Positions 58,191 to 58,859 of a stretch of DNA of 64,000 bases are shown here, piece after piece. Made by a program: the position numbers and the translations under genes. This DNA is from Escherichia coli. GTDB taxonomy: Bacteria > Pseudomonadota > Gammaproteobacteria > Enterobacterales > Enterobacteriaceae. The stretch's first letter is position 1. Each line of letters starts with the position of its first letter. The stretch lies in assembly GCF_045037415.1 (NCBI RefSeq), contig NZ_CP173438.1; one strand, written 5' to 3'. The notes under the pieces were generated by a model. That model saw only the letters and a program-made list of their open reading frames with translations. It searched no databases and was not told where the DNA came from.

Positions 58191-58859
58191 ATGGTTGACA
58201 TGAAAACTACGCATACCTCCCTCCCCTTTGCCGGACATACGCTGCATTTTGTTGAGTTCGATCCGGCGAGTTTTCGCGAGCAGGATTTACTCTGGCTGCC
58301 GCACTACGCACAACTTCAACACGCTGGACGTAAACGTAAAACAGAGCATTTAGCCGGGCGGATCGCTGCAATTTATGCGCTGCGGGAATATGGCTATAAA
58401 TGTGTGCCTGCAATCGGCGAGCTACGCCAACCTGTGTGGCCTACGGGGGTATACGGCAGCATTAGTCACTGTGGGACTACGGCATTAGCCGTGGTATCTC
58501 GTCAACCGATTGGCATTGATATCGAAGAGATTTTCTCTGTACAAACCGCAAGAGAATTGACAGACAACATTATTACACCAGCAGAACACGAGCGACTCGC
58601 AGAATGCGGTTTAACCTTTTCTCTGGCGCTGACACTGGCATTTTCCGCCAAAGAGAGCGCATTTAAGGCATGTGAAAGACAAACTGATGCAGGATTTCTG
58701 CGCTACCAAATCAGAAATTGTCAGCATCAACAGATGAATATAAGCGGGCCGAATGGCGACCATATCGTGCAGTGGTTAGTAAGGGGTAATAATGTTATTA
58801 CCTTGTGCCTGGCAGATAAACACCCGCACACTGCAGCATGCGGGTTATCTGGCGGGTAA
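58191..58859 (+). CDS. entD: 4'-phosphopantetheinyl transferase EntD
   Basis: N-terminus MVDMKTTHTSLPFAGHTLHF... recognised as EntD; start may be ATG 58191 or 58200; C-terminal ~50 residues differ from the K-12 sequence as I recall it. Confidence 0.8.
   Translation: MVDMKTTHTSLPFAGHTLHFVEFDPASFREQDLLWLPHYAQLQHAGRKRKTEHLAGRIAAIYALREYGYKCVPAIGELRQPVWPTGVYGSISHCGTTALAVVSRQPIGIDIEEIFSVQTARELTDNIITPAEHERLAECGLTFSLALTLAFSAKESAFKACERQTDAGFLRYQIRNCQHQQMNISGPNGDHIVQWLVRGNNVITLCLADKHPHTAACGLSGG

What the first reader, a model, noticed from the sequence alone, without database searches (positions are those of the whole stretch)
58191..58859. EntD C-terminal region diverges from the K-12 sequence
The N-terminal ~160 residues match EntD as I remember it, but the last ~50 residues (...ACERQTDAGFLRYQIRNCQHQQMNISGPNGDHIVQWLVRGNNVITLCLADKHPHTAACGLSGG) differ in sequence and length. 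The gene ends 1 bp from the convergent accessory transketolase gene. This may reflect a distinct entD allele or recombination at the island junction.
Basis: partly seen in the sequence, partly recalled or inferred. Interest (0 to 1): 0.3.

Follow-up and report, generated by a model that had tools for sequence, protein, structure and literature searches.

The report
Apiose-cluster-linked entD allele of ST131
The unusual end of this enterobactin gene (entD) is real. It is the minority E. coli form, always inherited together with the neighbouring D-apiose sugar-utilisation genes, so it marks a recombination boundary inside the gene and is an ordinary polymorphism already reported in outline.

Summary
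entD (58200/58191-58859, +) is 94.9% identical to K-12 over nt 1-494 and 50% over nt 510-609. It stays in frame, is 13 codons longer, and stops 1 bp from a convergent split-transketolase gene.

Among 5,426 complete E. coli genomes this "long" tail occurs in 630. The transketolase genes occur in 630, and a junction-spanning probe also hits 630. The K-12 "short" tail occurs in 4,783, so 5,413 of 5,414 entD-bearing genomes carry one form or the other.

Fixed long/short differences begin at entD nt 495-510 (window 58694-58709). Downstream of that point synonymous sites are saturated. Upstream dS is 0.12-0.16.

The neighbouring genes are the D-apiose degradation cluster of ST131/STc14 (PMC13001218). 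That paper already noted that entD travels with the cluster. The cluster lies next to entD in Citrobacter and in an Intestinirhabdus-type contig too, and in Citrobacter it is also followed by hok. The K-12 arrangement is therefore probably a deletion haplotype.

The extra 13 codons read through a terminator-like hairpin and are predicted to be disordered. The catalytic motifs and the Sfp-type fold are intact.

Novelty and interest are low.

The parts
58200..58859 (+). entD, the enterobactin synthase 4'-phosphopantetheinyl transferase, long allele of 219 aa. An alternative upstream ATG at 58191 gives 222 aa, as in the finding.
   Evidence: ORF. RefSeq annotation of the 100% identical SK1144 locus. 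Pfam 4PPT_N (1.4e-18) plus ACPS (1.3e-12). AF2 model with pLDDT 87 matching PcpS, PptT and Sfp.
58200..58693 (+). Core-like 5' part of entD (nt 1-494). It recombines freely within the species and contains all catalytic motifs (GIDIE with D107/E109; FSAKESAFK with K151/E152).
   Evidence: 94.9% nt identity to K-12 and 95.5% to strain 536. Polymorphisms here are shared between long and short alleles. dS is 0.12-0.16. D107, E109, K151 and E152 are invariant in 46 EntD sequences.
58694..58709 (+). Haplotype boundary (recombination breakpoint zone), entD nt 495-510, codons 165-170.
   Evidence: Fixed differences between all long alleles (window, L004, L006) and all short alleles (K-12, 536, L007-L009) begin at nt 510. 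The window and L006 carry long-specific bases from nt 495, whereas L004 is K-12-like up to nt 507.
58709..58808 (+). Divergent tail linked to the cluster, up to the conserved VITLC. It encodes the last four beta strands of the protein.
   Evidence: 50% nt and about 42% aa identity to short alleles. Synonymous sites are saturated and dN is 0.53. Predicted strands at residues 170-175, 178-183, 186-195 and 198-204, with pLDDT 88-95.
58809..58856 (+). C-terminal residues LADKHPHTAACGLSGG, 13 residues longer than K-12's QHD. They arise from translation through the intergenic hairpin.
   Evidence: Alignments. Residues 208-219 have pLDDT below 50. The amino acids differ between lineages (LPG-NPHTAACGLPGR in L006) while the base pairing is kept.
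58806..58858 (.). Imperfect palindrome or hairpin. The core at 58845..58822 plus a T-rich tail on the minus strand is a candidate intrinsic terminator of the transketolase operon, lying inside the entD reading frame.
   Evidence: Terminator-like site on the minus strand: 10 pairs, 6 GC, tail GTTTATCTGC. Fold energy -28.2 kcal/mol, z -2.85. The same element is a perfect 21-bp stem in Escherichia sp. MOD1-EC7003 (-49.1 kcal/mol, z -7.0). Two compensatory pairs. Absent from C. farmeri, where the stop codons are 3 bp apart. Single copy, and present only in the 630 cluster-bearing genomes.
58861..59796 (-). Transketolase C-terminal subunit (probably aptB of the D-apiose cluster), convergent with entD.
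   Evidence: ORF and annotation. Pfam Transket_pyr and Transketolase_C on the Citrobacter orthologue. Gene naming from PMC13001218.
59789..60619 (-). Transketolase N-terminal subunit (probably aptA).
60982..64000 (+). Continuation of the D-apiose cluster: SorC-type regulator (60982-61932) and FGGY kinase (62283-63803, probably aplK). The cluster runs on beyond the window to about position 69816 in window coordinates.
   Evidence: SK1144 annotation: regulator, FGGY kinase, periplasmic binding protein, DUF2291, ABC ATPase, permease and two SDR oxidoreductases, followed by hokE x2 and ybdK. The replaced segment is 11,116 bp, against 139 bp in strain 536.

Best explanation
The window carries the entD allele that is co-inherited with the D-apiose degradation cluster of E. 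coli ST131-type B2 strains.

Escherichia has two haplotypes at this site. One has the 11.1-kb apiose cluster plus a 'long' entD tail. The other, as in K-12 and most E. coli, has no cluster, a 'short' entD tail, and hokE 20 bp after the stop. The two tails are homologous but anciently diverged (about 50% nt identity).

Because the tails are so different, homologous recombination that moves or removes the cluster cannot resolve within them. It resolves upstream, at entD nt 495-510. The last ~50 codons therefore behave as part of the accessory segment. The first ~165 codons, which hold all catalytic residues, are shuffled like any core gene.

The extra 13 codons arise because the reading frame runs through a hairpin, probably the terminator of the convergent transketolase operon, until the first stop, 1 bp from that gene. 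This extension is predicted to be disordered.

The enzyme most likely works as a normal Sfp-type phosphopantetheinyl transferase for EntB and EntF.

Polarity is inferred, not shown. The cluster-bearing arrangement is ancestral, because both junctions are shared with Citrobacter. The K-12 form is a deletion haplotype.
For: **Linkage.** The long allele is in 630 genomes, the transketolase genes in 630, the 321-bp junction probe in 630, always as one piece, and the hairpin in 630. The short tail is in 4,783, giving 5,413 of 5,414 in total.

**Boundary.** Fixed differences start at nt 510, or nt 495 in the window and L006. Nt identity falls from 94.9% to 50.0%. dS rises from 0.12-0.16 to saturation. 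N-terminal aa identity between long and short alleles (86.7%) is similar to that among short alleles (84.5%), whereas tail identity is 42.6% against 71.6%.

**Mosaics.** Breakpoints differ between alleles: L004, and protein clusters P0004/P0009.

**Clean replacement.** 139 bp in strain 536 is replaced by 11,116 bp in ST131.

**Synteny.** C. farmeri has fes-fepA-entD convergent with tkt, then the cluster. A Citrobacter contig continues cluster-hok-...-ybdK with the same right junction, the SDR stop plus 8 nt followed by the hok terminator. An Intestinirhabdus-type contig has the same entD/tkt adjacency.

**Not a recent Citrobacter import.** Cluster genes are 78-81% nt identical to C. farmeri. 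The flanking genes are 77.5-82.4%.

**Exchange within the genus.** Against Escherichia sp. MOD1-EC7003 the cluster is 97.9-99.2% identical and the flanks 92.5-94.2%.

**Function kept.** Pfam 4PPT_N plus ACPS. Invariant D107, E109, K151 and E152. AF2 pLDDT 87 with a structured tail and a disordered extension. TM-score 0.81 to PcpS.

**Literature.** The cluster supports growth on D-apiose in STc131, STc14 and E. fergusonii, and the entD phylogeny tracks cluster presence (PMC13001218).
Against: Set equality across the 630 genomes is inferred from equal counts plus containment of the junction hits. It is not a per-genome table.

Polarity is not settled by the tail sequences. The long tail is only slightly closer to Citrobacter (38%) than the short tail is (31%), and the Intestinirhabdus-type tail is 20-31% identical to both.

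A simple deletion does not by itself explain why the short tail is so diverged and AT-rich (39% GC, against 47-50%).

Terminator function and EntD activity were not measured. The plus-strand side of the hairpin lacks a T-run, so where entD transcription ends is unknown.

dN/dS within tail types is raised (0.4-1.3, on few sites), so relaxed or diversifying selection also contributes to the divergence.
Confidence: 0.85

Rival explanations
1. The divergent tail arose in place by accelerated (positive or relaxed) protein evolution of the last 50 codons in ST131-type strains, without recombination or ancient haplotypes.
For: The tail is the least conserved part of EntD in all comparisons: between genera the N-terminal part is 63-68% identical and the tail 20-38%. 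dN/dS within tail types is 0.4-1.3, against 0.13-0.47 upstream. No solved PPTase aligns by sequence beyond residue ~160.
Against: Synonymous sites are saturated in the tail, while dS is 0.12-0.16 immediately upstream in the same gene. The change is abrupt, within about 15 nt. The same long tail occurs in another Escherichia species together with the cluster. Linkage to the cluster is perfect.
Confidence: 0.04
2. The tail and the cluster are a foreign genomic island recently imported from another genus such as Citrobacter. The short K-12 tail is the original Escherichia sequence, and the long tail is the donor's entD end.
For: The closest non-Escherichia transketolase homologues are from Citrobacter (89-90% aa identity). 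The long tail shares QHxQM, VQW and GN/NN with Citrobacter tails and is somewhat closer to them than the short tail is (38% against 31%). All other sampled Escherichia species (E. whittamii, E1V33, apiose-negative E. fergusonii) have the short tail. The published view is an acquisition at the emergence of phylogroup B2 (PMC13001218).
Against: Nt identity of cluster genes to C. farmeri is only 78-81%, no higher than that of the flanking core genes fes and fepA. The paper found no non-Escherichia genome above 90% nt identity. There is no integrase, transposase or direct repeat, and the GC content (49.9%) is like that of the flanks. Both junctions, including hok, are the same as in Citrobacter. 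A donor that was an unsampled early-branching relative of Escherichia is not excluded.
Confidence: 0.1
3. The difference is an artefact: a frameshift, an assembly error, or a faulty recollection of the K-12 sequence.
For: Some records do have damaged entD. P276M is annotated as frameshifted and aligns poorly. One protein cluster with 999 members is a frameshifted short allele (P0015).
Against: The frame is the same and the beta-strand pattern is conserved. The sequence is identical in hundreds of independent complete genomes.
Confidence: 0.01

Closest known systems
EntD of E. coli K-12 (enterobactin synthase component D, an Sfp-type PPTase)
   Same: Same locus (fepA-entD, opposite fes-ybdZ-entF). 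94.5% aa identity over residues 1-164. Same Pfam domains and catalytic motifs.
   Different: Residues 165-203 are only 43.6% identical. The window protein is 13 residues longer. It is followed 1 bp later by the convergent transketolase gene, whereas K-12 has hokE and IS186 downstream.
entD of D-apiose-cluster-positive Escherichia (STc131, STc14, some E. fergusonii, E. sp002965065), described in PMC13001218
   Same: The window is 100% identical to ST131 strain SK1144 over the 14.8 kb compared. It has the same gene order downstream of the enterobactin genes. [quoted passage not shown]
   Different: In the passages I read, the paper treats entD as a whole gene. Added here: the intragenic boundary at nt 495-510, the saturated tail, the read-through of the hairpin, and the synteny with Citrobacter at both junctions.
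EntD of Citrobacter farmeri, C. amalonaticus and C. freundii
   Same: Same convergent entD/transketolase arrangement and the same cluster. Tail motifs QHxQM and VQW are shared with the long allele.
   Different: 207 aa. The stop codons are 3 bp apart with no hairpin. About 68% (N-terminal part) and 38% (tail) aa identity to the long allele.
PcpS of Pseudomonas aeruginosa (PDB 7BCZ), and PptT, PptAb and Sfp
   Same: Same Sfp-type two-lobed fold: TM-score 0.81 to PcpS and 0.64 to Sfp 4MRT.
   Different: 18-30% sequence identity. Sequence alignment stops at about residue 160, so the variable tail has no sequence-level counterpart.

Membership tests
Sfp-type (type II) 4'-phosphopantetheinyl transferase / EntD | Two pseudo-symmetric halves (Pfam 4PPT_N plus ACPS) in a monomer of ~210-240 aa | tested here: met
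   PF17837 at 1.4e-18 (residues 40-103) and PF01648 at 1.3e-12 (residues 106-196), both above the curated cut-offs.
Sfp-type (type II) 4'-phosphopantetheinyl transferase / EntD | Metal-binding and catalytic motifs G-x-D-x-E and (F/W)(S/C/T)xKE(S/A)xxK | tested here: met
   GIDIE at residues 105-109 and FSAKESAFK at 148-156. D107, E109, K151 and E152 are invariant in the 46-sequence alignment. All lie upstream of the breakpoint.
Sfp-type (type II) 4'-phosphopantetheinyl transferase / EntD | Three-dimensional fold of solved Sfp-type enzymes, including the C-terminal strands | tested here: met
   AF2 model with pLDDT 87 and pTM 0.83. Foldseek hits: PcpS at 2.8e-16 with TM-score 0.81, then PptT, PptAb and Sfp. 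This is a prediction, not an experiment.
Sfp-type (type II) 4'-phosphopantetheinyl transferase / EntD | Position in the enterobactin gene cluster (downstream of fepA, opposite fes-ybdZ-entF) | tested here: met
Sfp-type (type II) 4'-phosphopantetheinyl transferase / EntD | Transfers phosphopantetheine from CoA to apo-EntB and apo-EntF | not testable with these tools
   Inferred from homology. ST131 strains are generally known to make enterobactin (my own knowledge, not checked here).
D-apiose degradation cluster (transketolase-dependent pathway, aptA/aptB/aplK) | Split transketolase (N and C subunits) plus an FGGY-type kinase within a 10-gene cluster that also has an ABC transporter and a regulator | tested here: met
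   Annotation of the identical SK1144 locus. Pfam families on the Citrobacter orthologues.
D-apiose degradation cluster (transketolase-dependent pathway, aptA/aptB/aplK) | Identity with the ST131 cluster shown to support growth on D-apiose | tested here: inconclusive
   The window matches ST131 genomes at 100%, and the paper places the cluster downstream of the enterobactin genes in all STc131. I did not align the window directly to the SE15 locus tags used there.
Classical mobile genomic island | Integrase or transposase, flanking direct repeats or a tRNA site, atypical composition, absence from the syntenic site in relatives | tested here: not met
   No mobility gene among the 10 cluster genes. 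GC is 49.9%, against 50-54% in the flanks. The cluster is next to entD in Citrobacter and in an Intestinirhabdus-type contig, and in Citrobacter hok follows it as in ST131.
Intrinsic (rho-independent) terminator | GC-rich stem-loop followed by a T-run just downstream of a stop codon | tested here: met
   On the minus strand there is a 10-bp stem (6 GC) at 58845..58822 with tail GTTTATCTGC, 16 nt after the transketolase stop. Two compensatory pairs across three alleles. This is a consensus match only, and the shuffles gave 1.6 such sites in the region.
Intrinsic (rho-independent) terminator | Terminates transcription in vivo | not testable with these tools
   Needs 3'-end mapping.

The most novel reading that the evidence does not exclude
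The anciently diverged beta-strand tail, with or without the disordered 13-residue extension, changes EntD's activity, stability or carrier-protein preference (for example towards the yersiniabactin or enterobactin synthetases). The apiose-linked allele would then contribute to siderophore output in the pandemic ST131 and ST1193 lineages. Alternatively, the two tails are a selectively maintained trans-species polymorphism in Escherichia rather than neutral hitch-hiking.
Probability: 0.06. Interest if true: 0.5.

Novelty: already known. Interest (0 to 1): 0.15.

Why it matters
There are four modest consequences.

1. For annotation and typing, two entD lengths (206 and 219 aa) are both genuine. 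The long one is a perfect marker of the D-apiose cluster, and so of ST131 and, per the literature, STc14.
2. It is a clean example of a core gene whose 3' end behaves as accessory DNA, because it abuts a presence/absence polymorphism. Trees built on whole entD will be misleading. The gene should be split at about nt 500.
3. Synteny with Citrobacter at both junctions suggests that the cluster is an ancestral segment lost in most Escherichia. That differs from an insertion and refines the published "acquisition" scenario.
4. Nothing suggests a new function or mechanism.

Tried and rejected
**Tail-only protein search.** I used a 78-aa query to look for the nearest relatives of the long tail. Only 17 candidates were scored, mostly fragments, so it said nothing about a donor.

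**Intestinirhabdus-type EntD as an outgroup.** Its tail is 20-31% identical to both types, so it cannot polarise long against short.

**Three-taxon comparison of tail dN.** It suggests a long branch for the short tail. With ~40 codons and saturated dS, I do not treat this as evidence of polarity.

**Hairpin as a member of a dispersed repeat family (REP/MITE-like).** Rejected. There is one copy in the window and one per genome, only in the 630 cluster-bearing genomes.

**The search of protein representatives.** Not used. Its 50%-identity clustering would merge Escherichia and Citrobacter EntD.

**Frameshift or artefact.** Rejected.

**Recent import from Citrobacter.** Rejected.

**Sequence types of the second long-allele class.** This class is about 218 genomes at ~97% in the junction probe, for example strain 377323_2f. 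I did not determine their sequence types. Assigning them to STc14 rests only on the published distribution.

Full report
**1. The observation**

It has an ATG at 58191 (MVDM...), the RefSeq start at 58200 (MKTT...), and a TAA stop at 58857-58859 on the + strand. A convergent ORF for the C-terminal subunit of a split transketolase has its stop at 58861-58863. One base therefore separates the two stops.

The window is identical, with 0 mismatches over the 14,810 bases compared, to E. coli SK1144. There the genes are annotated fes, fepA, entD, 'transketolase family protein' and 'transketolase'.

Against K-12 (DH1):

| Region | Identity |
|---|---|
| entD nt 1-494 | 94.9% |
| entD nt 510-609 | 50.0% |
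| aa 1-164 | 94.5% |
| aa 165-203 | 43.6% |

The product is 219 aa against 206 aa. The frame is unchanged and the pattern YQI...V.W...VITLC is kept, so this is neither a frameshift nor an assembly error.

**2.

I searched 5,426 complete E. coli genomes.

| Query | Genomes hit |
|---|---|
| entD (any form) | 5,414 |
| Full-length window allele (≥80% of the query covered) | 630 |
| The two transketolase genes | 630 |
| 321-bp probe across the entD tail and the transketolase 3' end (sensitive blastn) | 630, each one piece, annotated entD \| transketolase |
| K-12-type tail | 4,783 |

Genomes without the full-length allele match only the first ~480-510 bases of the entD query (one lower match, 356 bases, is the frameshifted P276M record). 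The junction probe found nothing in any other genome. The two tail types together account for 5,413 of the 5,414 entD-bearing genomes. The site is a clean two-state polymorphism, and the long tail is perfectly linked to the downstream locus. It is the minority form (11.6%), and many carriers are labelled O25b:H4-ST131.

**3. Where the break is**

A site-by-site comparison of three long and five short alleles shows that polymorphisms upstream of nt ~495 are shared between the types. From nt 510 (window 58709) onward the differences are dense and fixed. The window and Escherichia sp. MOD1-EC7003 carry long-specific bases from nt 495 (58694). Strain 377323_2f is K-12-like up to nt 507.

Other mosaics exist. 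One example is a set of short-tail proteins carrying the 'ACERQTDAD' patch.

Nei-Gojobori estimates give dS = 0.12-0.16 for codons 1-169 between long and short alleles. For codons 170 to the end, synonymous sites are saturated and dN is 0.53. In a 23-sequence alignment:

| Comparison | N-terminal identity | Tail identity |
|---|---|---|
| Long vs short | 86.7% | 42.6% |
| Short vs short | 84.5% | 71.6% |
| Long vs Citrobacter | 67.9% | 38% |

(All.) This is a recombination boundary between two old haplotypes. It is not local fast evolution.

**4. What lies downstream**

In ST131 the tail is followed by ten genes:

- two transketolase subunits
- a SorC-type regulator
- an FGGY kinase
- a periplasmic binding protein
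- a DUF2291 protein
- an ABC ATPase
- a permease
- two SDR oxidoreductases

After these come two tandem hokE copies and ybdK. Relative to the cluster-less B2 strain 536, 11,116 bp replace 139 bp. That 139 bp is the short tail plus 20 nt. Homology resumes exactly at the hok terminator.

A 2026 paper (PMC13001218) identifies this as the D-apiose degradation cluster (aptA and aptB transketolase, aplK kinase). It reports the cluster in 100% of STc131 and STc14, in some E. fergusonii, and in 6 of 7 E. sp002965065. It shows growth on D-apiose. [quoted passage not shown] The outline of the finding is therefore already published.

**5. Origin**

*Citrobacter farmeri* has the same order: fes-fepA-entD (207 aa) convergent with the transketolase genes, then the whole cluster. 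A Citrobacter contig continues with hok directly after the second SDR gene, with the same junction as ST131. An Intestinirhabdus-type contig also has entD convergent with the transketolase.

Cluster genes are 78-81% nt identical between E. coli and C. farmeri. The flanking fes and fepA are 77.5-82.4%. There is no mobility gene, and GC content is 49.9%.

I therefore read the cluster-bearing arrangement as the ancestral one and the K-12 arrangement as a deletion haplotype. I hold this with moderate confidence, about 0.6. The tails themselves do not polarise the change, and the AT-rich short tail (39% GC) remains unexplained.

Within the genus the cluster moves. Against Escherichia sp. MOD1-EC7003 the cluster is 97.9-99.2% identical, whereas the flanks are 92.5-94.2% and the tail 89.4%.

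**6. The 13 extra codons**

Compared with Citrobacter, where the stops are 3 bp apart, Escherichia long alleles carry about 40 extra bases between VITL and the transketolase stop. These bases form a hairpin.

- In the window the fold energy is -28.2 kcal/mol (z -2.85).
- In MOD1-EC7003 the hairpin is a perfect 21-bp stem (-49.1 kcal/mol, z -7.0).
- On the minus strand it scores as terminator-like: 10 pairs, a T-rich tail, 16 nt after the transketolase stop.
- Two stem pairs change on both sides between alleles, while the encoded peptide changes freely (LADKHPHTAACGLSGG against LPG-NPHTAACGLPGR).
- The element is single-copy and confined to the 630 genomes.

I infer that entD simply reads through the transketolase operon's terminator to the next stop. 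Terminator activity is untested.

**7. Function of the protein**

- Pfam 4PPT_N and ACPS are both above threshold.
- D107, E109, K151 and E152 are invariant and lie upstream of the break.
- An AlphaFold model (pLDDT 87) folds residues 170-204 into four confident strands and leaves residues 208-219 disordered.
- The model matches PcpS (TM-score 0.81), PptT, PptAb and Sfp.
- Solved PPTases align by sequence only to about residue 160, so the tail is the family's most variable part.

The long allele most likely works as an ordinary EntD. This is an inference.

**8. Verdict**

The feature is an ordinary, well-explained natural polymorphism, already described in outline. What this analysis adds is the intragenic boundary, the saturated tail, the hairpin read-through, and the synteny with Citrobacter at both junctions. 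Interest is low.

Noticed in passing
L012 11902-12370 and 12405-12870 (SK1144; about window 69817-70785, beyond the window end): ST131 has two tandem copies of the hokE region (96.6% identical to each other) at the far end of the apiose cluster. The cluster-less strain 536 has one. This may be a footprint of the recombination that joined the cluster to this site.
   Followed up: partly
L006 about 6607-6656 (Escherichia sp. MOD1-EC7003): The hairpin between entD and the transketolase gene is a perfect 21-bp stem with a 4-nt loop (-49 kcal/mol, z -7). This is far stronger than the degraded E. coli version and unusually long for a terminator.
   Followed up: partly
Protein P0015: A 236-aa EntD variant standing for 999 member sequences is a short allele frameshifted after ...HWQIKEK. 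It reads on into the hok-proximal spacer (NSHNSVPTRLIDNIWYDSPAAITDRGRKCKAGALPL). It appears to be a common C-terminally altered entD in some lineage.
   Followed up: no
L005 about 9450-9700 (E. coli P276M): entD is annotated as frameshifted. From nt ~450 it aligns poorly to all other alleles, with many small indels. This is probably assembly error rather than a third allele, and it may be the one genome not counted in either tail class.
   Followed up: no
K-12 entD nt 510-621 (L002 9519-9630): The short tail is markedly AT-rich: 39.3% GC, against 50.2% for the rest of entD and 47.0% for the long tail. Between K-12 and E. whittamii its dS (0.11) is lower than that of the 5' part (0.56). This hints that the short tail has its own history, but the number of sites is small.
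   Followed up: partly
window 58040-58160: The fepA-entD spacer contains REP-type palindromic units (gccggatgcggcgtgaacgccttatccggcctac, then aggcctgataagcgtagcgcatcaggc). I recognised these by eye and did not test them.
   Followed up: no
L013 10728-17779 (Citrobacter contig): In Citrobacter, a hok gene, a betT-betI-betB-betA-like choline/betaine operon (BCCT transporter, TetR, aldehyde dehydrogenase, GMC oxidoreductase) and an acetyltransferase lie between the apiose cluster and ybdK. Escherichia has only hokE there.
   Followed up: no
P0110 (C. amalonaticus, 221 aa) and L014 4959-5612 (217 aa): Other genera also have their own unrelated C-terminal extensions of EntD at this convergent junction. 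The position of the entD stop codon is generally labile.
   Followed up: no
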